From Parcubacteria group bacterium Gr01-1014_8 (lineage in GTDB: Bacteria; Patescibacteriota; Minisyncoccia; Phycocordibacterales; UBA2100), in contig VMGC01000005.1 of assembly GCA_007376385.1 (NCBI GenBank), positions 1 through 64,000 of the forward strand: 64,000 nucleotides of DNA. The letters run 5' to 3'. The number at the start of each line of letters is the position of its first letter. The first letter of the stretch is position 1. Below are positions 186 to 60,729 of the stretch, piece by piece. The notes under the pieces are model-generated. The model ran no database searches. It was given only the letters and a program-made list of their open reading frames with translations, and had not been told where the DNA came from. The position numbers were made by a program, and so were the translations under genes.

Positions 186-1565
186 ATGAAAGTTATGCAG
201 AATGTGTGCCTTGCAGCGGGTGCGAGCGTGATATTGCTCGCAGCTGTTTTTCTTGTATCGGTAACATTGCCGCTTGCAGTTTCGTATCATGATGGAGTCT
301 TTGCATTTAATTCTACACAAATAGCGGGAGCGAGTGGAGACGGCTCAGGAGATGGAAGCGGTGATGGTTCGGGTGACGGCAGTGGAGACGGCTCGGGAGA
401 CGGTTCCGGCGATTCAAGCGGCGACAGTGGTGGGGATTCAGGAGGAGACAGCGCAGGTGATTCTGGTGGGGATAGCGGTGGGGATAGCGGTGGGTGTTGC
501 GGTGATTCCGGGGGTGATTCAGGATGTTGTGGCGATTCCAGCGGCGACAGTTCAGGTGATTCAACCGGAGATTCTACAGGTGACAGTACAGGCGGCTGTT
601 GCGACGGGGGCGGCTACGAACAGGCTTCTTACTACGGACAGGCACAATACTATTCACAGCCGCACTACTACTCACAAGGAGACTACTATTCCGAGGCCGG
701 ATATTACTCACAAGGCGACTATTATTCTGAAAGTCACTACTACTCACAAGGAGACTACTATTCCGAATCGAGCTATTACGCCGAACCTTCGTACTACTCG
801 CAAGGTCACTACTACTCACAGGGGTCGTACTGCGACGATGACAGCAGTGGGGATTCTTCAGGTGGAGATGGAGGAGACGGATGCTACTCGCAATCAAGCT
901 ACTACACCCAGCCTGGATATTATGATCAGGGAAGCTATTACAATCAGGGCAACTATTACAACCAGGGTAGCTACCACTCGCAGTCCTACTATCAGAGCTA
1001 CTATGACCGTGACGAACCGACGTGTTGGATAGAAATTGATTCAGACAACTATTGGTACGATAACTACAACTACGATTACTATTACGACCAGAATTATGGA
1101 AATCAGTCAGCGTCGCTTCGCTGGGGCTCATCCTACGCGACGTCTGCGGATCTGACAGACGTAGGCTCAGTCCCAACGAGTGGATCTCGAACAGTGTATC
1201 CAAACGGACCACGAACATACACGCTGACCGTATATGGCTCAGGAGGTTCGGACACGTGCAGCGCGTATTTCACGCCGCATCACGCTTCTCCGCCAGTAGT
1301 TCACAACGCACCGTATGTTGCTCTCACACAGATCCCATACACTGGATTTGGACTCGGACCAGTAGGGGATACATTCGCTTGGTTCTCCTTGGTGAGCGCA
1401 GCGTTCGCAGGTGCGGTCGCAGTGATGCATCTTAAAGGGCCCGGCATGGCGTTCGCCATAGGCTCGCTTATTCCGCAGATCCCTTCATTTAAACTTCCGA
1501 GTTTCGGGGCAAAAACTAAGCCTAGAAAGCGTCTCGTGTTGCCTGGGCAGAGGGAGGAGGAATAG
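186..1565 (+). CDS. Secreted/cell-surface low-complexity repeat protein. Signal peptide MKVMQNVCLAAGASVILLAAVFLVSV, (SGDG)n repeats, CC-pairs, YYSQ-type Tyr-rich decapeptide repeats, a ~90-aa conserved Cys-containing domain, then IPYTG + hydrophobic segment + basic tail (sortase-like sorting signal).
   Basis: ORF 45..1565. Internal ATG at 186 precedes a signal-peptide-like segment. Repeats read directly from the translation. C-terminal domain shared with the ORF at 1739..2437. Confidence 0.6.
   Translation: MKVMQNVCLAAGASVILLAAVFLVSVTLPLAVSYHDGVFAFNSTQIAGASGDGSGDGSGDGSGDGSGDGSGDGSGDSSGDSGGDSGGDSAGDSGGDSGGDSGGCCGDSGGDSGCCGDSSGDSSGDSTGDSTGDSTGGCCDGGGYEQASYYGQAQYYSQPHYYSQGDYYSEAGYYSQGDYYSESHYYSQGDYYSESSYYAEPSYYSQGHYYSQGSYCDDDSSGDSSGGDGGDGCYSQSSYYTQPGYYDQGSYYNQGNYYNQGSYHSQSYYQSYYDRDEPTCWIEIDSDNYWYDNYNYDYYYDQNYGNQSASLRWGSSYATSADLTDVGSVPTSGSRTVYPNGPRTYTLTVYGSGGSDTCSAYFTPHHASPPVVHNAPYVALTQIPYTGFGLGPVGDTFAWFSLVSAAFAGAVAVMHLKGPGMAFAIGSLIPQIPSFKLPSFGAKTKPRKRLVLPGQREEE
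337..600 (+). repeat. Tandem 12-nt coding repeats (ggagacggctca-like) encoding (SGDG)n / (GGDS)n
   Basis: Direct reading of nucleotide and protein sequence. Likely length-variable. Confidence 0.7.
630..840 (+). repeat. Tandem ~30-nt coding repeats encoding YYSQ-x-x-YYSE decapeptides
   Basis: QAQYYSQPHYYSQGDYYSEAGYYSQGDYYSESHYYSQGDYYSESSYY... in translation. Confidence 0.6.
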
Positions 1566-3907: not shown

Positions 3908-3932
3908 ATGACCGACATCGTATGTCGGTCAT
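3908..3932. repeat. REP palindrome ATGACCGACATCGTATGTCGGTCAT
   Basis: Perfect hairpin-forming palindrome immediately 3' of the RAYT gene. Confidence 0.7.
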
Positions 3933-4582
3933 TCCAACGTGAAAGGGCGAACCTCTGCAATCTCTATATCTTTCAAGTATCGAGCAGTGTCGTTCTTGAT
4001 AGCGCCAGGTTTTTCCTGAAAAAAATCTGTCGTCAGAACAGATGGAAAATTCTTTTCCCCGGAATAATCCAAGTAACTACTCCAGCGGTATGTATCCAAA
4101 TGTTTCAGTGCGGCTGTCGTGCTACCTATGTTGCGGTTTCGCCAGTCTCGAGCAGTTTGCAGATAATCCAGTGGATTGAGATGGACATAGTGCAGAATGT
4201 GAAGGTAATGCGCATCAGATGTAATTCGAATTTTCTTAGTTCTTCCCTGAAACAAGTAACCGTTCCGTTTATAGCGTTGATTGAAGTATTTCGCGTAGCC
4301 TACATTAAGTTTTCGAACAAAAAGCGATAATCCTTTCTCGATCTGTTCTGTAAGCAGAAGGTGATAGTGATTCTTCATCAGGCACCAGCCGTGAATATCA
4401 ACAATTCGCTTTCTCGATGACGGACCTACGAAGTCTGCCGTTTCTTTGCGTCGCCTTGTATTTTCTGCTGGTTTCGTATCGTTAAATTCGTACATGTCAT
4501 GAACGAATCTGGCATAATCGAGTGTATCCAAAAAGATATTCTTTTTCTCAACCCCTCGATTAAGTACGTGATACAGCTCCAT
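3929..4582 (-). CDS. REP-associated tyrosine transposase (RAYT; IS200-like Y1 HUH family, COG1943-like)
   Basis: N-terminal YHVLNRG...IF.D..D...F, HUH motif GWCLMKNHYHLLL, Tyr motif YAKYFNQRYKRNGYLFQGRTK. Flanked by REP palindromes. Confidence 0.8.
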   Translation of the reverse strand: MELYHVLNRGVEKKNIFLDTLDYARFVHDMYEFNDTKPAENTRRRKETADFVGPSSRKRIVDIHGWCLMKNHYHLLLTEQIEKGLSLFVRKLNVGYAKYFNQRYKRNGYLFQGRTKKIRITSDAHYLHILHYVHLNPLDYLQTARDWRNRNIGSTTAALKHLDTYRWSSYLDYSGEKNFPSVLTTDFFQEKPGAIKNDTARYLKDIEIAEVRPFTLE

Positions 4583-4590
4583 GCTGCAAG

Positions 4591-4712
4591 TATGACCGAC
4601 ATACGATGTCGGTCATAGAGGGTTATCCACTCGGGGTTACTGCTCCCAATGATTCGACTTACAATGTTCGACTTACGATGTCGGTCACTAGATGTCGGTC
4701 ACTACTACATTT
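4591..4712. repeat. REP cluster: one full REP (TATGACCGACATACGATGTCGGTCATA, 4591..4617) plus degenerate REP units (…CGACTTACGATGTCGGTCACTAGATGTCGGTCAC…)
   Basis: Direct sequence comparison with the REP at 3908. Confidence 0.7.
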
Positions 4713-16122: not shown

Positions 16123-16201
16123 CGCTGATTCGTTTGCCTGCTCTGTCATCCTCATGGCCATGCCCATAGCATATCAAAATAGTGACGGGGGCGAGAGGGT
16201 C

Positions 16202-16229
16202 TTGACATATAAATCGGCCCTGATACACT
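16202..16229 (+). promoter_or_regulatory. Candidate rpoB promoter TTGACA-N16-TACACT
   Basis: Hexamers at 16202..16207 and 16224..16229. Confidence 0.35.
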
Positions 16230-16432
16230 CCTCGGACATTTGCTGATTCTCTGGATGCGTTGCGGTTGGTTCTTGAATAAGCAAAAAAGAAGCCTGTAGT
16301 CAGGTACTTTTTATTGCCGAGGATAGTGAGAGAAATGAAAGTTGAGACTTTCATTTCCGAACGCCGCAGGCAACAAAAGCAACGCTTTTATACAACCGCT
16401 AACTAGTCCGCCTTTGGCGGACAGGAATACGC
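16230..16432 (+). promoter_or_regulatory. Long rpoB 5' leader with two hairpins: GAAATGAAAG-ttgagac-CTTTCATTTC (16331..16356) and TCCGCC-ttt-GGCGGA (16407..16421), the latter just before the RBS
   Basis: Perfect inverted repeats read from sequence. Confidence 0.35.
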
Positions 16433-26684: not shown

Positions 26685-26803
26685 ATTAGGCGTGCCGAGG
26701 GATTGCCTTTTTCGGGTCGCTGTCTGCGCGTGCTCGCGCAGCGCTCACTCTCGCGCCGTCGCGCTGCGAGAGACCCTCACAAGGCAATCCCTCTCGGCCT
26801 AAT
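26685..26803. terminator. Long imperfect inverted repeat (ATTAGGCGTGCCGAGGGATTGCCTT … AAGGCAATCCCTCTCGGCCTAAT) enclosing a GC-rich, internally palindromic 70 nt between convergent rpoD and a membrane-protein gene. Putative bidirectional terminator or structured element.
   Basis: Read from sequence. Confidence 0.4.
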
Positions 26804-27572: not shown

Positions 27573-27597
27573 ATGCGCAGCAATCCTACACTTCGAA

Positions 27598-27611
27598 CAA
27601 GGGGAGTCAAC
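27598..27611 (-). promoter_or_regulatory. GTTGACTCCCCTTG motif copy 1 (-35 TTGACT, 16 nt, TAGGAT; ATG ~7 nt after the -10, so leaderless)
   Basis: Plus strand reads CAAGGGGAGTCAAC. Confidence 0.45.
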
Positions 27612-28579: not shown

Positions 28580-28623
28580 TATACCCCGCGAGATAAACGG
28601 TCTAGCCGTATCTCACGGGCATA
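28580..28623. repeat. IR element copy D (short hairpin form): TATACCCCGCGAGATAAACGG-tctag-CCGTATCTCACGGGCATA
   Basis: Same arm sequence as copies A/B/C/E but with a 5-nt loop instead of the ~70-nt interior; 15 nt upstream of the dehydrogenase ATG. Confidence 0.5.
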
Positions 28624-28630
28624 CCCCCGC

Positions 28631-28644
28631 CAAGGGGAGTCAAC
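28631..28644 (-). promoter_or_regulatory. GTTGACTCCCCTTG motif copy 2
   Basis: Plus strand CAAGGGGAGTCAAC; between divergent genes. Confidence 0.4.
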
Positions 28645-31014: not shown

Positions 31015-31033
31015 AGATTCAGTATACCTCGGG

Positions 31034-31047
31034 CAAGGGGAGTCAAA
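31034..31047 (-). promoter_or_regulatory. TTTGACTCCCCTTG motif copy 4 (-35 TTGACT, -10 TATACT, start codon immediately downstream)
   Basis: Plus strand CAAGGGGAGTCAAA. Confidence 0.45.
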
Positions 31048-31340: not shown

Positions 31341-31364
31341 ACGGATACAATGTTACCGCTCGAC

Positions 31365-31378
31365 CAAGGGGAGTCAAC
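31365..31378 (-). promoter_or_regulatory. GTTGACTCCCCTTG motif copy 5
   Basis: Plus strand CAAGGGGAGTCAAC; 25 nt upstream of the 95-aa gene start. Confidence 0.4.
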
Positions 31379-32092: not shown

Positions 32093-32388
32093 CAGTCGAG
32101 TACTCGGACAAGTCTGGATCGCATAACGTTGTAATATGTATTGTCCGGGTACCGTTTATCTCTCGCCTTGACGAGTTCAGGTTTGAAGTCACGTATATCC
32201 TCTTCGGACATGGTCTTGGGGCCTACCCAAGCTGTTTCGGTGTTGCCAACTTTATCGAGCTTTAAAACACGGAGTACAGTACCAGCGCGAATATTCCCAC
32301 TGAAGAATCGAGCATGAGATGCATACTTAAGCATCGCAAAACATTCTTCCTCTATGGGTAAAGAAAGCCCTTCGTGCTGTTCTCCCAT
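32092..32388 (-). CDS. Hypothetical protein (99 aa). The ORF-track N-terminal extension to 32826 is rejected.
   Basis: The Arg/Ser/Cys-rich N-terminal 146 aa overlap the structured element and the nuoB-like gene; start taken at MGEQHEG. Confidence 0.4.
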   Translation of the reverse strand: MGEQHEGLSLPIEEECFAMLKYASHARFFSGNIRAGTVLRVLKLDKVGNTETAWVGPKTMSEEDIRDFKPELVKARDKRYPDNTYYNVMRSRLVRVLD

Positions 32389-32416: not shown

Positions 32417-32563
32417 TTATTTGCGAGCGTTGCGAGTAAAATGCAAAAGAGCACTTTTGCATTCCCGAGCCGAGGAGCAAACACAGGTTCAATACCTCGG
32501 AGCAAGCTCCGAGGAACCTTTATTTGTGAAGCGGGCAAATTCTCCCTGGACTTGAGACAGGGA
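32417..32563 (+). ncRNA. Structured RNA element, copy 1: TTATTTGCGAGCGTTGCGAGTAAAATG + hairpin 1 (AATGCAAAAG/TTTTGCATT) + CCGAGCCGAGGAGC + hairpin 2 (CTCGGAG-caag-CTCCGAG) + hairpin 3 (CCCTG…CAGGG). Directly upstream of the Ehr-like operon.
   Basis: Paralogous to 47594..47759 with compensatory substitutions in all three stems. Strand assignment is tentative. Confidence 0.5.
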
Positions 32564-32594
32564 CAGGAGTAGAGTTGTCCGCATTTAGACTCGT

Positions 32595-33110
32595 ATGTTA
32601 CGCCTTTTGACGCAGATGATCCGGACTGGCAAGAAGACCGAACCGGCTCCAATACTGGAGCCAATTGACGAGGTCGGGGAGAACCTCCGCAATGCCATTC
32701 ATACGCTCTACGGAGGGCGTATGCTCCGTATCCGCCACGTGGATGCCGGCTCGACAAACGGAGAGGAATTCGAGATGACGGCGCTTGGCAACGCCTACTA
32801 CGACATGGAGCGATTCGGACTTTCATTTGTTGCCTCTCCCCGGCACGCTGACATTTTGACCGTATCCGGGCCAGTAACGCGCAATATGGAACACGCGCTC
32901 AAGACTGCGTATGAAATGACGCCGAAGCCTCGCATTGTCATCGCAGTCGGAGACGGCGCAATTGACGGAGGAATCTGGAAAGATTCGTACGCAATTGTGG
33001 GAGGGGTGAAGGATGTTATTCCGGTTGACGCCGAAATTCCCGGAGATCCACCGTCTCCGCTTGATCTGCTAAAAGGATTTCTAAATGTGTTGCAAGGCGC
33101 AAGAAAATAG
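32595..33110 (+). CDS. NuoB/HycG-family subunit (complex I 20-kDa / hydrogenase small-subunit fold) lacking all four [4Fe-4S] cluster cysteines
   Basis: Aligns well to NuoB (ERFGLSFVASPRHADILTVSGPVTRNMEHAL…IVIAVGDGAIDGG…IPVDAEIPGDPP). CCxxE becomes ST/EE, GxCA becomes GDGA, PGCPP becomes PGDPP. Confidence 0.75.
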   Translation: MLRLLTQMIRTGKKTEPAPILEPIDEVGENLRNAIHTLYGGRMLRIRHVDAGSTNGEEFEMTALGNAYYDMERFGLSFVASPRHADILTVSGPVTRNMEHALKTAYEMTPKPRIVIAVGDGAIDGGIWKDSYAIVGGVKDVIPVDAEIPGDPPSPLDLLKGFLNVLQGARK

Positions 33111-35080: not shown

Positions 35081-35180
35081 CCCCATGAGAGAAACGATCT
35101 AAATTCTTATGAATCACACCAATTGTAACGAGATGCAGTGCTTCGCTCAGGATCATATCTATTTTTCTCACGGGGTATGA
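35078..35180. repeat. IR element copy E: TGACCCCATGAGAGAAA …69 nt… TTTCTCACGGGGTATGA. Spans the stop codon of the upstream gene and the ATG of the downstream gene.
   Basis: Same arm consensus and ~70-nt spacing as copies A–C. Confidence 0.5.
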
Positions 35181-36124
35181 CCGTCACGATACTCATTTTG
35201 CAGTTCTTCTTAGTGCTCGCGGCAGCGCCCGCGACGGTGGGGATCGTGCGTAAAATAAAAGCGCGCTTTCAGAACAGGCGCGGCGCACGCATCACGCTTC
35301 CATACTGGTCGCTCCTTTCGTTGCTTCGAAAAGAAATGACCATCACGCGGCACAGTTCGTGGGTGTTTCGCATCGTTCCGTTCGTGGTCTTTGGAAGCGC
35401 ACTCGCGCTAGCAGCGCTTATTCCTTCTTTTGCTGTAGGAATTCTGGCCGCGAGCATGAGCAACATTTTTCTTGTCGGCGCCGTCGCCGCGCTCGGCTCC
35501 GCGTTCCTTGTTTTTGGCGGCATGGATACCGGAAGCACGTTCGGCAACATGGGCTCCAGCCGCGAGATGACGATAGCCTCATTGATAGAGCCTGCCGTAT
35601 ACGTATCGCTCGCTTCTCTTGCAACGCTCTCCGGTTCGTGGAGTTTGGATGGCATCGCACTATTTTTTGCCGCAAGTAAATGGGTGGAGATAATACTTCC
35701 GGCCTCACTTACGTTAGTGGCCCTCGTCTTTGTGCTGCTCGCAGAAAATGCGCGCTATCCGGTGGATAATCCTGCAACGCACCTTGAGCTCACAATGGTG
35801 CATGAGGCGATGGTCTTAGAATATTCCGGCCCATACCTCGCAATGCTCGAATACGCGTCGTGGATAAAATTGACTGCGATGCTGATGCTCGTGATGAATC
35901 TCGTAGCGCCGTGGGGTATTCTGACTTCTCCATTTGCTCTTGGGGCCACTCTCATCGCGCTCGTTGCATTTGCCATTAAGCTCGGCGTCGGTGCATTCGT
36001 CATTGCGTTCATCGAATCAACGATCGTAAAAATGCGCTTCTATCGAATGCAGGAATACATGTCTCTTGCGCTCATCGTTGCGCTCGGCGGTCTTGCTATT
36101 TCGCTTGTCTCAATTGCCGTATGA
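35177..36124 (+). CDS. NuoH/HycD-like membrane subunit
   Basis: 8-TM NuoH-like pattern. Start at MTVTILIL (the ORF begins at 35138). Confidence 0.7.
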   Translation: MTVTILILQFFLVLAAAPATVGIVRKIKARFQNRRGARITLPYWSLLSLLRKEMTITRHSSWVFRIVPFVVFGSALALAALIPSFAVGILAASMSNIFLVGAVAALGSAFLVFGGMDTGSTFGNMGSSREMTIASLIEPAVYVSLASLATLSGSWSLDGIALFFAASKWVEIILPASLTLVALVFVLLAENARYPVDNPATHLELTMVHEAMVLEYSGPYLAMLEYASWIKLTAMLMLVMNLVAPWGILTSPFALGATLIALVAFAIKLGVGAFVIAFIESTIVKMRFYRMQEYMSLALIVALGGLAISLVSIAV

Positions 36125-47593: not shown

Positions 47594-47759
47594 TTATTGG
47601 CGAGCGTTGCGAGTGAAATGAACGTGTACTCATGTTCATTTCCGAGCCGAGGAGCCAAAATACGGTTAATACCGCGCAGCAAGCTGCGCACGTGTGCGAG
47701 CGAAGCGAGCTCATCAGCAGGTCCAGGGCTTTGCCCTGGGGTTTAATACCGTTTATTTT
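47594..47759 (+). ncRNA. Structured RNA element, copy 2: the same three hairpins with covarying stems, ending in a hairpin + T-rich tract (terminator-like), in a convergent intergenic region
   Basis: See copy 1; here followed by GGTTTAATACCGTTTATTTT. Confidence 0.5.
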
Positions 47760-50635: not shown

Positions 50636-50737
50636 CGGAAAATTATAGCCCGACGAAGCGAGTGAAGCGAGAGCTTTGTTCTCGTTTCCGAGTAAGCGCA
50701 GATCAAACGAAAACGGCGACTATCTTATGGAGAGTCT

Positions 50738-57729: not shown

Positions 57730-60729
57730 ATGATAACGCGGGTTACGGTACGGGCGAAGAGAGAAGATGCTCGGGCCGATGGATACCTGCGAACTCTCAA
57801 AAATAGGTTTCCCAAGGTCAAACTGAAGGGCGTGGCTGTAACGGAGGCCTATACCATTGATGCCAAACTTTTGCCGAAGGAACTTGAAAAAATCGCGAAG
57901 GGTCTCGCAAATCCGATAATAGAAGAATATGCTACAAAGGGCGTATTAGCCCCCGAAACTTTTTCTGTAGCAGTAGAGATAGGATTCTTGCCGGGTGTTA
58001 CTGATAATGTCGGACACACGGTGAGGGAAATGATAGAGGATACGACAGGACGCAAATTTAAAGACGCCGCCGCCGTCTATACTTCGAGATTTTTGTTTCT
58101 TACGGGTTCGACAGCGACTGATGAAGCCGCAAGAATGGCGCGGGAATTTTATAACCCGCTTATCCAGCGCGCGTCGGTGCTTTCGTATTCTGAGTTTAAG
58201 AAAGGTGTACCGATCATAGTACCCAAGGTTGAACTGCACAGCACAGTAAAAACGGATGAGGTGAATTTAGAAGTCGATGACGATGAGTTGATGAGAATAG
58301 GCAAGGAGGGAATTGTGAACAAGGACAACACAAGACAAGGACCGCTCGCCCTCTCTCTTCGCGCGATGCACATCATTCGCGATTATTTTCGTACGATTGG
58401 CAGGGATCCAACTGACGTTGAACTCGAGGCACTCGCGCAGACATGGTCCGAACACTGCAAACACACGATCTTCGCCGACCCCCTGGATGAGATAGAGGAG
58501 GGAATTTACCGGCGATATATCAAAGGTGCAACGCAAAAGATACGGAAAGACAAGGGTAAGAAAGATTTCTGCGTGTCGGTATTCACCGATAACTCTGGCG
58601 GGATCGCTTTCGACGATAAATATCTCGTCACACACAAAGTCGAGACGCATAATTCGCCATCAGCTCTGGATCCATTCGGCGGCGCGATAACGGATATCGT
58701 TGGTGTGAATCGCGATTGTCTTGGGTTCGGATTAGGTGCAAAACCAATTGCAAACGTGTACGGATTTTGCGTTGCTGATCCGACTGACGAGACGCCTTAT
58801 TTTCGCGACAAAGAAAAAACACAACCGCTTCTCTCCAACCGACGAATTCTTGAAGGGATCGTTCAGGGCATCAATGCAGGTGGAAACCAGAGTGGTATTC
58901 CCACTCCTCTTGGTTTTGTTGCTGTTGACCCAAGCTTTCGCTCAAAACCTCTGGTGTATGGCGGAACGGTCGGACTTATTCCAAGAAAATCTCACGGGCG
59001 AAAGCTTCACGAAAAAGAAGCGCGCGCTGGCGATTACGTAGTGATGATAGGCGGGAAGGTTGGTCTCGACGGCATACACGGTGCCACATTTTCCTCGGAG
59101 GCCTTGGCGAAGGGTTCGCCTGCGACGGCCGTGCAGATAGGCGACCCCATTACGCAAAAGAAATTCTCCGACGCTATCGTACGAGAAGCGCGGGATGCAG
59201 GTCTTTTCAACAGCATTACCGATAACGGCGCAGGCGGACTCTCGTCGTCGGTGGGTGAGATGGCGAAAGACTCCGGTGGGTTTGTCGTCGACTTGGAAAA
59301 AGTCCCACTCAAATACCCAGGACTCTCTCCGTGGCAGATATGGATATCAGAATCGCAAGAGCGCATGACGCTCTCGGTACCGAAGTCGAAATGGAATGCG
59401 CTGAAGAAAATATTTGATAGGCACGGAGTGGACGCGTGGCGAATAGGCGAGTTCACAAAATCAGGTAAAGCAATTGTGAGGTGGAGGGGGACGAAGGTGA
59501 TGGATATGGATATGAAATTCCTTCATGACGGCCGTCCCATCGAGGAGCAGAAAAGCCAGCCAGTCTTGAGGACATTCGCGGAGCCGCTTCCTGAGGAGCG
59601 GCCGAAAGATCTAGGAAAGACGCTTGTCGAAATGCTCGCTCGGCCGTCTATTGGCAGTATCTCGTTTATCTCACAACAGTACGACCACGAAGTTCTCGCG
59701 ATGGCTGTTACAAAACCATTGCAAGGACGGGGGAGAGTGAATGCGGATTCGGGAGTAATCCAGCCGTTGCCTCACTCCAATCGCGGCGTGGTGCTCGCGC
59801 ATGGATATGCACCGTGGTATTCGAACATTGATACATATGCGATGGCAGCAGCTTCCATTGATGCGGCGATTCGAAATGCGGTTGCTGCAGGCGCATCGCT
59901 CGACCATTTGGCGATACTCGACAACTTTTGCTGGTCGAGTTCGAACGAGCCGGGGCGCTTATACGAATTGAAACGTGCAGCCGAGGCTTGCTACGACATT
60001 GCGGTTGCCTACGGCACGCCATATATATCAGGCAAGGATTCAATGTTCAATGATTTTCGAGGATATACGGAGAGTGACGTGCAGATCCACATCGCGGCGC
60101 TCCCGACGCTTCTTATTTCCGCTATCGGCGTGATTCCCGACGTCCGTAAGGCCGTCACGCTCGACGCAAAACAGCCGGGCGACCTTGTCTATCTTATCGG
60201 CGATACTAATGACGAACTCGGTGCATCCGAATATTTCACAATGCTCTCTGAACGTACATCGACCTACGAAGTCGATAGGGATGACCGACATACGATGTCG
60301 AACATTGGAAGCAATGTCCCGCGCGTGGACACGACGAAAAATATGAAAACATATAAAGCTCTTGAAAAAGCGATACAGAAAGGCCTTGTCGCATCAGCAA
60401 TCTCTGTTGGGCGCGGAGGACTTGCCGTCGCGCTCGCGAAAACTGCAATAGCAGGGAAGTTGGGAATAAACGCGGACCTGACGAAGTTGCTTGGCACTGC
60501 AGGAACGGATGACTCAAGACTGTTCTCGGAAAGCCAAGGGCGTGTTCTCGTGAGCGTAAACTCAAAGCTGAAGCGGGAATTCGAGAAATCATGTCAAGGT
60601 TCAACCTTGACATTAGTGGGCGAGGTGATGAAAAGGAATTCGCTCGAAGTAGACCTTTCGGAGAAGCGGCTGAATATTCCGCTCAAAATGCTCTCGGCAG
60701 CATATCAGAAGCCGTTCAAAAATTGGTGA
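57730..60729 (+). CDS. purL: Phosphoribosylformylglycinamidine synthase subunit PurL with fused N-terminal PurS-like region
   Basis: 999 aa. AIR-synthase-related domains ×2. A separate purQ lies downstream. Confidence 0.9.
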   Translation: MITRVTVRAKREDARADGYLRTLKNRFPKVKLKGVAVTEAYTIDAKLLPKELEKIAKGLANPIIEEYATKGVLAPETFSVAVEIGFLPGVTDNVGHTVREMIEDTTGRKFKDAAAVYTSRFLFLTGSTATDEAARMAREFYNPLIQRASVLSYSEFKKGVPIIVPKVELHSTVKTDEVNLEVDDDELMRIGKEGIVNKDNTRQGPLALSLRAMHIIRDYFRTIGRDPTDVELEALAQTWSEHCKHTIFADPLDEIEEGIYRRYIKGATQKIRKDKGKKDFCVSVFTDNSGGIAFDDKYLVTHKVETHNSPSALDPFGGAITDIVGVNRDCLGFGLGAKPIANVYGFCVADPTDETPYFRDKEKTQPLLSNRRILEGIVQGINAGGNQSGIPTPLGFVAVDPSFRSKPLVYGGTVGLIPRKSHGRKLHEKEARAGDYVVMIGGKVGLDGIHGATFSSEALAKGSPATAVQIGDPITQKKFSDAIVREARDAGLFNSITDNGAGGLSSSVGEMAKDSGGFVVDLEKVPLKYPGLSPWQIWISESQERMTLSVPKSKWNALKKIFDRHGVDAWRIGEFTKSGKAIVRWRGTKVMDMDMKFLHDGRPIEEQKSQPVLRTFAEPLPEERPKDLGKTLVEMLARPSIGSISFISQQYDHEVLAMAVTKPLQGRGRVNADSGVIQPLPHSNRGVVLAHGYAPWYSNIDTYAMAAASIDAAIRNAVAAGASLDHLAILDNFCWSSSNEPGRLYELKRAAEACYDIAVAYGTPYISGKDSMFNDFRGYTESDVQIHIAALPTLLISAIGVIPDVRKAVTLDAKQPGDLVYLIGDTNDELGASEYFTMLSERTSTYEVDRDDRHTMSNIGSNVPRVDTTKNMKTYKALEKAIQKGLVASAISVGRGGLAVALAKTAIAGKLGINADLTKLLGTAGTDDSRLFSESQGRVLVSVNSKLKREFEKSCQGSTLTLVGEVMKRNSLEVDLSEKRLNIPLKMLSAAYQKPFKNW
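60281..60300. repeat. REP-derived sequence ATGACCGACATACGATGTCG embedded in-frame in purL (encodes …DRDDRHTMS…)
   Basis: 19/23 identity to the REPs flanking the RAYT gene; lies in a segment that looks like an insertion relative to the PurL core. Confidence 0.5.

What the first reader, a model, noticed from the sequence alone, without database searches (positions are those of the whole stretch)
32417..32563. Candidate novel structured RNA, copy 1, directly upstream of the Ehr-like operon
A ~100-nt sequence recurs at 47594..47700 with ~70% identity. The differences are concentrated in three hairpin stems and are compensatory. Hairpin 1 is AATGCAAAAG-agcac-TTTTGCATT here and AATGAACGTG-tact-CATGTTCATT there, with a G·U in the second. 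Hairpin 2 is CTCGGAG-caag-CTCCGAG here and GCGCAG-caag-CTGCGC there, with an identical loop. Hairpin 3 is CCCTG…CAGGG here and CCAGGGC…GCCCTGG there. Conserved single-stranded blocks are TTATTKGCGAGCGTTGCGAGTRAAATG, CCGAGCCGAGGAGC and GGTTNAATACC. This copy ends ~30 nt before the nuoB-like ATG, suggesting a cis-regulatory leader. Copy 2 ends with a terminator-like hairpin plus T-tract. The element does not match motifs I know for tmRNA, SRP, RNase P, 6S, T-box or common riboswitch classes.
Basis: seen in the sequence. Interest (0 to 1): 0.7.

Follow-up and report, generated by a model that had tools for sequence, protein, structure and literature searches.

The report
Mobile structured intergenic repeat in a CPR bacterium
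The two look-alike sequences are real, but they are copies of a short hairpin-rich repeat scattered between genes of this small uncultured bacterium, and they behave like a small mobile element rather than a regulatory leader of the hydrogenase-like operon.

Summary
Window 32417-32514 and 47594-47691 align without gaps at about 77% identity, and the differences in two hairpins are compensatory. Rfam has no match.

The interpretation as a leader of the nuoB/Ehr-like operon fails.
- There are at least six copies in about 85 kb of this Kaiserbacteria-like CPR genome. Four lie in the window (16311, 32417, 47594, 50643) and two on fetched flanks.
- One more copy lies in a distant relative (YidC 62% identical).
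- The copies sit in every kind of intergenic context.
- The orthologous sites in relatives are empty: nuoB upstream, the rpoB leader and the yidC-jag spacer.
- Copy 1 and a copy 38 kb away are 105/108 identical, with unrelated flanks. This defines a discrete 108-nt unit, TTATT...CCTTTATT.

The unit has no terminal inverted repeats and no promoter. It carries a long 5' hairpin with an invariant tandem G.A motif and a 3' terminator-like hairpin. All seven copies point the same way relative to replication.

Best reading: a non-autonomous mobile structured repeat. It possibly moves as single-stranded DNA in the IS200/IS605 manner, and it donates terminator-like hairpins wherever it lands. A transcribed small-RNA role is not excluded. 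This is a new variant of a known kind, of moderate interest.

The parts
32417..32524 (+). Copy c1, short form of the repeat unit (108 nt): TTATT, 5' long hairpin, spacer, 3' hairpin, AACCTTTATT
   Evidence: 105/108 identical to copy c6 (L076 18184-18291, which is window coordinate 70889-70996, outside the window). Flanks are unrelated at 37/120. R1 118 bits, R2 76 bits.
32420..32481 (+). c1 long irregular 5' helix (unit positions 4-65). It contains hairpin 1 (32440-32463) and the invariant tandem G.A pairs G18.A52 and A19.G51.
   Evidence: RNAalifold predicts the same helix on the long forms. 15 pairs, 93% paired, 8 pairs with changes on both sides over 7 copies. G18, A19, G51 and A52 are invariant in 7/7 copies.
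32495..32514 (+). c1 3' hairpin CCTCGGAG-CAAG-CTCCGAGG followed by AACCTTTATT (terminator-like; right end of the unit)
   Evidence: Flagged by the terminator scan. The same 10-nt tail follows the last hairpin of the L042 copy.
47594..47759 (+). Copy c2, long form (166 nt). 5' helix with hairpin 1 at 47617-47640, hairpin 2 at 47674-47689, second GCGAG-N4-GCGAG block at 47703-47716, hairpin 3 at 47723-47739, tail ...CCGTTTATTTT.
   Evidence: R1 115.6 bits, R2 84.9 bits. 80% identical over 119 nt to L042 12134-12252. Starts 12 nt after the DsbB-like stop codon. Its last base is the first base of the stop codon of the convergent pilin-like gene.
16311..16392 (+). Copy c3, diverged short copy inserted in the rpoB 5' untranslated region
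   Evidence: R1 30.9 bits (E 1e-7), R2 64.9 bits. It is an ~80-nt block absent from the otherwise alignable rpoB leaders of relatives L063, L060 and L061. It keeps the helix through GUGAG/CGAAC, where C-G becomes U-A.
50643..50701 (+). Copy c4, diverged copy keeping the 5' module only. It lies between two minus-strand genes, 8 nt from the ATG of the FAD-oxidase-like gene.
   Evidence: R1 18.6 bits, R2 59.1 bits. Hairpin 1 is kept with a different sequence and two G.T pairs.

Best explanation
The finding is two members of a lineage-restricted family of short (about 80-170 nt) non-autonomous mobile repeats that populate the intergenic DNA of this Kaiserbacteria-like CPR genome.

SHOWN: anatomy of the unit. 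Each unit is bounded by TTATT-like pentamers on both sides. It carries, on one strand only:
- A long irregular 5' hairpin. Its stem sequence drifts but stays paired. Its core is an invariant G-Y-G-A-G / C-G-A-R-Y segment that can form tandem sheared G.A pairs.
- One or two internal G+C hairpins.
- A final hairpin followed by AACCTTTATT.

SHOWN: behaviour.
- The family is multi-copy.
- The unit has discrete boundaries.
- Orthologous sites in relatives are empty.
- There are no terminal inverted repeats, no promoter and no coding signal.
- All copies share one orientation.

INFERRED: how it moves. The unit most likely moves as single-stranded DNA through an HUH/Y1-type 'peel and paste' reaction, as IS200/IS605 elements and their palindrome-associated derivatives do.
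- It would insert 3' of a TTATT target exposed on the lagging-strand template.
- That would explain the absence of inverted repeats, the subterminal hairpins at IS608-like distances from the ends, and the uniform orientation.

INFERRED: what it does where it lands. It is transcribed passively with its neighbours.
- In the sense orientation its last hairpin plus U-run acts as an intrinsic terminator or insulator, for example after the DsbB-like gene, dnaN and yidC.
- It is not a dedicated regulator of the nuoB/Ehr-like operon.
For: Copy number and spread:
- Six copies lie in 85 kb of the same genome, four in the window plus L064 6629-6687(-) and L076 18184-18291(+).
- One further copy lies in a JGI contig whose YidC is only 62% identical to this genome's.

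Discrete unit: c1 and c6 are 105/108 identical while 120 nt of flanks are 31% identical.

Empty orthologous sites:
- nuoB upstream in L003, L009 and L011.
- rpoB leader in L063, L060 and L061.
- yidC-jag spacer in L066 (YidC 92% identical to L042's) and in the window genome itself, L064.

Assembly behaviour: two independent assemblies break their contigs inside the element, L002 and L040.

Ends: no terminal inverted repeats in c1, c6 or L042 (197-266 of 500 shuffles reach the observed score). c2 scores marginally high, with 12 of 500 shuffles reaching it. TTATT occurs at both ends of c1 and c6.

Geometry: TTATT lies 17-18 nt before the foot of hairpin 1, and the unit ends 10 nt after the foot of the last hairpin. 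IS608 has 19 nt and 10 nt (PMC3201880).

Orientation:
- All four window copies and c6 are on the + strand, where cumulative GC skew rises throughout.
- c5 and the L042 copy are on the leading-strand side of dnaA. That makes 7/7.
- Long ORFs and Pfam-supported genes occur on both strands throughout the window.
- IS200/IS605 elements insert into the lagging-strand template.

Transcription signals: no sigma-70-like promoter in or before the copies, although canonical promoter-like sites precede rpoB and jag. A terminator-like 3' hairpin is flagged on the + strand for c1 and L042.

Y1 gene: a Y1_Tnp/RAYT-like gene is present in the window, so this chemistry exists in the genome.
Against: - No autonomous partner with matching ends was found. 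The one Y1 gene in the window is single-copy and is flanked by its own, different palindromes. Its flanks show no similarity to the element beyond chance (z<2).
- In IS200/IS605 the left and right hairpins resemble each other and are conserved between copies. Here hairpin 1 (A+T-rich) and the 3' hairpins (G+C-rich) are unrelated, and both drift between copies.
- Unpaired or non-canonically paired blocks are 100% identical between genomes whose YidC is 62% identical, while the stems vary with compensation. That is the classic signature of a functional RNA or of a protein-recognised single strand.
- TTATT is the same in all copies, so it cannot be told apart as target, duplication or element end.
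- Replication direction is inferred only from GC skew and from the position of dnaA.
- The relatives used as 'empty sites' are 86-92% identical in protein, so loss rather than gain is not formally excluded at each site.
- G.T pairs outnumber A.C pairs only 8 to 4, and both strands fold equally well.
Confidence: 0.55

Rival explanations
1. A multi-copy family of small RNAs, either trans-acting or acting as a protein-binding decoy. The invariant tandem-G.A helix and the repeated (G/C)CGAG motifs would form the functional surface, and the last hairpin would be the terminator. The copies would be paralogous genes rather than selfish DNA.
For: - Compensatory changes keep the helices while sequence drifts.
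- G18, A19, G51 and A52 are invariant in 7/7 copies.
- The blocks are identical between genomes with 62% YidC identity.
- A terminator-like 3' end lies on the same strand.
- Folding z-scores are about -3.7 to -4.8.
- There is no Rfam family for it.
Against: - The duplicated unit contains no recognisable promoter, and none lies upstream, although this clade shows canonical TTGACA-N17-TAnAnT sites.
- Copies begin 4-12 nt after stop codons or 8 nt from a start codon, which leaves no room for a promoter.
- Copies are not syntenic in relatives.
- The 3' halves are not conserved in c3, c4 and c5.
- The orientation bias is not expected for genes in a region where genes are split evenly between strands.
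Confidence: 0.22
2. A host-serving cis element, such as a portable terminator, an insulator or an mRNA-stabilising 3' structure. It would be spread and homogenised by recombination or gene conversion and retained because compact CPR intergenic regions need such signals.
For: - c2, c5 and the L042 copy start 12, 6 and 4 nt after the stop codon of a co-oriented gene and end with a hairpin, which c2 and L042 follow with a T-run.
- c1 sits between divergent genes, upstream of the nuoB-like promoter-like site, where it could block read-through.
Against: - c4 and c6 are antisense to both neighbours.
- c3 sits inside the rpoB leader with only a weak hairpin.
- The long, conserved 5' module is unnecessary for termination.
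- Close relatives manage without the element at the same sites.
Confidence: 0.12
3. One reading: a riboswitch-like or attenuator leader that controls the nuoB/Ehr-like operon.
For: Copy 1 lies upstream of the nuoB-like gene and contains a hairpin plus T-run, as an attenuator would.
Against: - The element is absent upstream of orthologous genes at 76-83% protein identity.
- It ends 22 nt upstream of the -35-like hexamer (32547) of the promoter-like site, whose -10 TAGAGT is shared with L003.
- Five other copies are next to unrelated genes or to no downstream gene.
Confidence: 0.03
4. A small protein gene. One reading frame stays open through c1, c2, c3, c5 and the L042 copy, and four of these have an ATG in the 5' arm of hairpin 1.
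For: Open frames of 31-80 codons run in the same register (read directly).
Against: - Variable columns fall 12/9/12 on codon positions 1/2/3.
- The conserved blocks are identical at the nucleotide level across distant genomes.
- The predicted peptides share no C-terminal similarity.
- c4 has a stop at codon 2, and the L042 copy lacks the ATG.
- The other two frames are closed by stops inside the conserved block, so only this one frame could ever be open.
Confidence: 0.03

Closest known systems
IS200/IS605-family ends and their non-autonomous palindrome-associated derivatives (IS608 paradigm)
   Same: - No terminal inverted repeats.
- Strand-specific subterminal hairpins.
- A conserved short motif abutting the left end and closing the right end.
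- Left motif 17-18 nt before the first hairpin and right end 10 nt after the last one, against 19 and 10 nt in IS608.
- Uniform orientation relative to replication.
   Different: - Left and right hairpins are unrelated to each other and vary between copies.
- There are long conserved blocks and a tandem-G.A helix not known from IS608 ends.
- No cognate TnpA with these ends was found.
- The end motif is TTATT at both ends rather than two different tetranucleotides.
REP/REPIN elements mobilised by RAYT (REP-associated tyrosine transposases)
   Same: - Short intergenic hairpin repeats.
- High copy number.
- Lineage-specific.
- A single-copy Y1 gene is present in the genome (window 3929-4582).
   Different: - REPs are 20-40-nt imperfect palindromes and the same sequence flanks the RAYT gene. 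Here the RAYT-like gene is flanked by a different palindrome, ATGACCGACAT-nnn-ATGTCGGTCAT.
- The element is a 108-166-nt composite with non-palindromic conserved blocks.
Transcribed structured intergenic repeats such as Correia elements (Neisseria), ERIC/IRU (enterobacteria) and BOX/RUP (pneumococcus) - recalled from general knowledge, not tested here
   Same: - 100-200-nt dispersed intergenic units.
- They fold into stable hairpins in mRNA.
- They lie next to starts and stops of genes and can change termination or stability of neighbouring transcripts.
   Different: Those elements have terminal inverted repeats and occur in both orientations. This one has neither.
Multi-copy small-RNA families with repeated protein-binding motifs (CsrB/RsmZ type) - recalled from general knowledge
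   Same: - Several repeats of a short motif, here (G/C)CGAG.
- A variable number of modules between copies (short and long forms).
- A terminator at the 3' end.
   Different: - No promoter.
- No synteny between species.
- The motifs are paired with each other rather than displayed in loops.
- No partner protein is known.

Membership tests
Any Rfam 15 family | Match to a curated covariance model | tested here: not met
   No hit at the gathering threshold in the whole window. At E<=10 there are only sR40 (14.4 bits) and His_leader (13.7 bits), both far below their thresholds, on copy 1. There is nothing on copy 2.
Cis-regulatory leader / riboswitch of the nuoB (Ehr-like) operon | Conserved upstream of orthologous genes in related genomes | tested here: not met
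   L003-L013 (NuoB-like protein 76-83% identical) lack it, by motif search and by both covariance models.
Cis-regulatory leader / riboswitch of the nuoB (Ehr-like) operon | Lies inside the 5' UTR, between promoter and start codon | tested here: inconclusive
   The unit ends at 32524. A promoter-like TGGACT-N17-TAGAGT (32547-32575), whose -10 is shared with L003, lies downstream of it. This promoter scores 8/12 and is below the scan's threshold. No transcript data are available.
Independent small-RNA gene | Own promoter | tested here: not met
   No sigma-70-like site in or upstream of c1, c2 or the L042 copy. The duplicated unit starts at TTATT, 4-12 nt after upstream stop codons.
Independent small-RNA gene | Intrinsic terminator at the 3' end | tested here: met
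   c1 32495-32514 plus AACCTTTATT, and L042 12261-12281 plus AACCTTTATT, are flagged. c2 has a hairpin at 47723-47739 with the T-run 11 nt after the stem, which the scan does not flag.
Independent small-RNA gene | Base pairs maintained by compensatory change | tested here: met
   The helix at alignment columns 16-33/38-54 has 15 pairs, 93% paired, and 8 pairs changed on both sides. For the whole 17-pair structure, 0 of 500 shuffles reach the observed score and the slid controls give 31-59% paired. Hairpin 2 has 3 pairs changed on both sides.
DDE-type MITE | Terminal inverted repeats | tested here: not met
   The first 35 nt were compared with the reverse complement of the last 35 nt. c1, c6 and L042 score at the level of shuffles. 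c2 scores marginally high, with 12 of 500 shuffles reaching it.
DDE-type MITE | Copy-specific target-site duplication | tested here: inconclusive
   TTATT-like sequence flanks every copy on both sides, for example TTATTTG at both ends of c1. Because it is the same in all copies, duplication cannot be told apart from an element end.
IS200/IS605-type non-autonomous element | Subterminal hairpins on one strand with cleavage motifs about 19 nt 5' of the left hairpin and about 10 nt 3' of the right hairpin | tested here: met
   TTATT, then 17-18 nt, then the foot of hairpin 1. The foot of the last hairpin is followed by the 10 nt AACCTTTATT in c1, c6 and L042, and by 18 nt in c2. Reference geometry comes from PMC3201880. 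Cleavage itself was not tested.
IS200/IS605-type non-autonomous element | Left and right hairpins alike and conserved among copies (recognised by one TnpA) | tested here: not met
   Hairpin 1 and the 3' hairpins share no sequence. Both vary between copies.
IS200/IS605-type non-autonomous element | Orientation tied to the direction of replication | tested here: met
   7/7 copies have the structured strand on the G-rich strand or on the leading side of dnaA. Replication direction is inferred, not measured.
IS200/IS605-type non-autonomous element | A Y1 transposase gene bounded by the same ends somewhere in the genome | tested here: not met
   The only Y1 gene seen (window 3929-4582) has different flanking palindromes and no similarity beyond chance. 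It is single-copy. Most of the genome could not be searched.
REP/REPIN | 20-40-nt imperfect palindrome identical to those flanking the RAYT gene | tested here: not met
   The palindromes flanking the RAYT-like gene are a separate low-copy family at 3908-3932, 4592-4616 and 60281-60305.
Small protein-coding gene | Substitutions concentrated at third codon positions | tested here: not met
   Variable columns number 12/9/12 by codon position.

The most novel reading that the evidence does not exclude
The element is a new kind of mobile structured nucleic-acid module. Its invariant tandem-G.A helix (G-Y-G-A-G / C-G-A-R-Y with a bulged base) and the repeated CGAG blocks would be the recognition surface for one of two things:
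- An undescribed single-strand transposition or homing system whose ends do not follow the IS200/IS605 rule of matching hairpins.
- A CPR-specific RNA-binding protein, in which case the copies would act as a dispersed regulon or decoy RNA family that also spreads between distant Kaiserbacteria.
Probability: 0.2. Interest if true: 0.7.

Novelty: new variant of a known kind. Interest (0 to 1): 0.45.

Why it matters
CPR/Patescibacteria genomes are small and compact, and (from general knowledge, not tested here) they are usually described as poor in mobile DNA and in known regulatory RNAs.

- Here a structured repeat occurs about once per 14 kb.
- It abuts start and stop codons and has entered the rpoB leader.
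- It breaks metagenome assemblies.
- It is shared, with identical core blocks, by genomes that are only 62% identical in YidC.

If it moves as single-stranded DNA, it would be a tractable non-autonomous HUH-type element in an uncultured lineage. If it acts as RNA, it is an unclassified motif with an invariant tandem-G.A core.

Either way it is a useful marker for annotation and assembly of these genomes. It also shows that 'compensatory hairpins next to an operon' need not mean a riboswitch.

Tried and rejected
- **Rfam.** Searched at gathering and permissive thresholds; nothing.
- **tRNA, tmRNA or tRNA-like origin of the GGTTCAATACC block.** ARAGORN finds nothing in the window.
- **Genome-collection scan for both blocks.** The 24 hits are all chance matches in high-GC genomes. 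This was checked by reading L014 and by running the model over all of them. The source genome itself is not in that collection.
- **Viral contigs, phage records and plasmid records.** No member.
- **Leader conservation upstream of nuoB-like, rpoB and jag orthologues.** Absent.
- **Homology between the element and the flanks of the Y1/RAYT-like gene.** By eye both show TTAT, a linker, an ATGA..TCAT hairpin and TCC.A. Local alignment against shuffles gives z<2 for every pair, so this was dropped.
- **Kink-turn reading of the tandem G.A.** The bulge is 1 nt and is not adjacent to the G.A pairs, so it is not a canonical k-turn (read).
- **Hammerhead-like reading.** CUGAUGA occurs on the minus strand of c2 only, is not conserved in L042 and has no helix II. 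Rejected.
- **Sigma-54 reading of TGGCGAGCGTTGC.** The GG-GC spacing is 8, not 10, and c1 lacks the GG. Rejected.
- **Internal sigma-70 promoter (TTATTG-N14-TGAAAT, either strand).** The spacing is wrong and the scan does not flag it.
- **Small ORF.** Rejected on the codon-position pattern.
- **Strand choice from wobble pairs.** Only 8 G.T against 4 A.C, and folding energy is equal for both strands, so this is not decisive.

Full report
**1. The observation**

Window 32417-32514 and 47594-47691 align over 98 nt without any gap, at about 77% identity. The blocks GCGAGCGTTGCGAGT and CCGAGCCGAGGAGC occur nowhere else in the window, and no shuffle reproduces the pair. Both stretches fold better than all 200 shuffles, with z about -3.7. 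Rfam 15 has no match at the gathering threshold. At E<=10 only two meaningless sub-threshold hits appear. The repeated, hairpin-bearing sequence is therefore real and is not a known RNA family.

**2. Source and setting**

The neighbouring proteins identify the source as a CPR bacterium. The records name it 'Parcubacteria group bacterium Gr01-1014_8', and its closest relatives are Kaiserbacteria.

- Copy 1 (c1) lies between a minus-strand ORF that starts at 32388 and the nuoB-like gene (Oxidored_q6) that starts at 32595.
- Copy 2 (c2) begins 12 nt after the stop codon of a DsbB-like gene. It ends at the stop codon of a convergent pilin-like gene.

**3. More members**

One metagenome scan recovered a third strong member, L042 12134-12293. 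It sits between yidC and jag, next to dnaA and rnpA. Covariance models built from the copies then found further members:

| Copy | Position | Setting |
|---|---|---|
| c3 | window 16311-16392 (+) | upstream of rpoB |
| c4 | window 50643-50701 (+) | between two minus-strand genes |
| c5 | L064 6687-6629 (-) | same genome, another contig; 6 nt after the dnaN stop codon |
| c6 | L076 18184-18291 (+) | same contig, 38 kb beyond c1 (window coordinate 70889-70996) |

That is six copies in about 85 kb of one genome. No member was found in:
- 185,579 species-representative genomes, using the two-block pattern;
- viral contigs, phage records or plasmid records.

**4. Structure**

- *Hairpins in the three strong copies.* Hairpin 1 and hairpin 2 show 7 pairs changed on both sides, 92.6% of cells paired, and 0 of 500 shuffles as good.
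The segment G16-Y17-G18-A19-G20 faces C50-G51-A52-R53-Y54.
  - The flanking pairs are kept or compensated: C-G in five copies, U-A in c3, U.G in c5.
  - G18.A52 and A19.G51 are invariant in 7/7 copies. That arrangement is the standard context for tandem sheared G.A pairs.
  - This helix has 15 pairs, 93% of cells paired, and 8 pairs with changes on both sides. Slid controls for the whole structure give 31-59% paired.
- *Independent prediction.* RNAalifold on the two long forms predicts the same helix, including an outer stem 4-8/61-65. In that stem, position 6 pairs with 63 as U-A in c1 and c6 and as G-C in c2 and L042.
- *Which strand.* On the opposite strand the G.A pairs would be pyrimidine mismatches, so the structure belongs to the + strand. 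Wobble counts (8 G.T against 4 A.C) and folding energies do not separate the strands further. The data cannot separate RNA from single-stranded DNA.

**5. It is not a leader of the nuoB/Ehr-like operon**

- Genomes whose NuoB-like protein is 76-83% identical have short, unrelated upstream regions with no match to either model.
- What the window shares with the closest of them is only the last ~35 nt before the ATG. That stretch includes a -10-like TAGAGT.
- With TGGACT 17 nt upstream, this gives a weak promoter-like site at 32547-32575. It lies downstream of the element. This promoter is an inference.

**6. It behaves as a discrete, mobile unit**

- *Discrete unit.* c1 and c6 are identical at 105 of 108 positions, from TTATTTGCGAG to GGAACCTTTATT. 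The 120 nt around them are 31% identical.
- *c3 as an insertion.* c3 is an ~80-nt block inside an rpoB leader that otherwise aligns with relatives at 86-89% RpoB identity. It lies downstream of a shared TTGACA-N17-TAYACT promoter-like site.
- *Empty yidC-jag sites.* The yidC-jag spacer lacks the element in L066, a relative of L042 with 92% identical YidC. It also lacks it in the window genome itself.
- *Conserved blocks across distant genomes.* The window genome's YidC is only 62% identical to L042's. Yet c2 and the L042 copy are 80% identical, with 100% identical blocks.
- *Assembly breaks.* Two independent assemblies end contigs inside the element.
- *What the unit lacks.* It has no terminal inverted repeats and no promoter-like site. 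It has no coding signature: variable columns fall 12/9/12 by codon position.
- *Forms.* There is a short form (c1 and c6, 108 nt) and a long form (c2 and L042, about 160-166 nt). The long form has a second GCGAG-N4-GCGAG block and an extra hairpin. The short form's last hairpin and 10-nt tail match the long form's last hairpin and tail in L042.

**7. How it most likely works**

*Shown.* All seven copies have the structured strand on the strand inferred to be leading. The five copies on the window contig are all on the + strand, where cumulative GC skew rises throughout. c5 and the L042 copy are on the matching side of dnaA. Yet long ORFs and Pfam-supported genes lie on both strands of the window, and the copies have neighbours in all four orientation combinations.

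*Shown.* TTATT lies 17-18 nt before the foot of the 5' hairpin. In c1, c6 and L042 the unit ends 10 nt after the foot of the last hairpin.

*From the literature.* In IS608 the left cleavage site lies 19 nt 5' of the left hairpin and the right one 10 nt 3' of the right hairpin. There are no inverted repeats. [quoted passage not shown]

*Inferred.* The element is a non-autonomous HUH/Y1-type single-strand transposon derivative that inserts 3' of TTATT. When transcribed with its neighbours, its last hairpin plus U-run would terminate or insulate transcription. That role fits c2, c5 and L042, which begin 12, 6 and 4 nt after the stop codons of co-oriented genes.

*Against this mechanism.*
- The left and right hairpins are unlike each other and drift between copies.
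- No transposase with these ends was found.
- The one Y1/RAYT-like gene in the window (3929-4582) is single-copy. It carries its own, different palindromes and has no significant similarity to the element.
- The strict conservation of the blocks, against compensated drift of the stems, would suit a functional RNA or a protein-bound single strand equally well.

**8. Comparison with known systems**

- The element shares its logic with IS200/IS605-derived palindrome-associated elements and with REP/REPIN. It fails the defining tests of both: matching hairpins, and identity with the repeats flanking the transposase gene.
- It resembles transcribed structured repeats such as Correia, ERIC and BOX in size, location and likely effect on neighbouring transcripts. 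This is recalled from general knowledge. It differs in having no inverted repeats and a single orientation.
- It is not a member of any Rfam family.

**9. Verdict**

- The sequence observation is right apart from the boundaries and the copy number.
- The 'leader of the Ehr-like operon' part does not.
- I rate it a new variant of a known kind, a short structured interspersed repeat. Confidence is 0.55 for the mobile-repeat explanation as a whole, and lower for the specific single-strand mechanism.
- Interest is 0.45. No enzyme, transcript or phenotype is attached to it yet.

Noticed in passing
window 3908-4702 and 60281-60305: A single-copy 217-aa Y1_Tnp/RAYT-like gene (3929-4582, minus strand; Pfam 29.8 bits; NCBIfam REP_Tyr_transpos 39.9 bits, below its cut-off). 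It is flanked by perfect palindromes ATGACCGACAT-nnn-ATGTCGGTCAT at 3908-3932 and 4592-4616, with partial copies at 4664-4702. A solitary copy lies at 60281-60305, inside the 999-aa FGAM-synthase-like ORF. This is a separate REP-like family.
   Followed up: partly
window 26685-26803; L042 10526-10576: A very stable ~118-nt Y-shaped fold (MFE -65.8 kcal/mol, z -5.85) in the spacer after the sigma-70 gene. 51 nt of it are 84% identical to a spacer between dnaA and rnpA in the distant L042 genome. There is no Rfam match.
   Followed up: partly
window 8391-8410/8479-8498, 46109-46128/46196-46215, 56954-56973/57040-57059, 35161-35181: A 16-20-nt motif TATCTCAYGGGGTATA recurs as inverted pairs about 70-90 nt apart in three divergent intergenic regions, with one single copy. 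It may be a shared promoter or operator signal.
   Followed up: no
window 27588-27610, 28621-28643, 31024-31046, 31355-31377: Four copies of ...CAAGGGGAGTCAA within 4 kb, close to gene ends. The meaning is unknown.
   Followed up: no
window 16193-16221; L060, L061, L063 upstream of rpoB: A canonical promoter-like TTGACA-N17-TAYACT and the first ~60 nt of a long rpoB 5' UTR are shared by the window and three relatives. A hairpin just before the start codon (window TCCGCC-TTTG-GCGGA) is shared with L061. In relatives trmD precedes rpoB, but in the window a divergent HAD-like gene does.
   Followed up: partly
window 343-823 (ORF 45-1565): The first ORF contains 18-nt-period and 24-60-nt-period tandem repeats that encode Tyr/Ser/Gln/Gly-rich and Gly/Asp/Ser-rich runs. 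It has no Pfam match.
   Followed up: no
L040 2376-3190 versus L042 11408-12222: Two JGI contigs share yidC plus the element at 88% nucleotide identity overall, while their dnaA regions are only 69% identical. The last ~117 nt, including the element, are identical. This suggests recombination, transfer of the segment, or a chimeric assembly at the repeat.
   Followed up: partly
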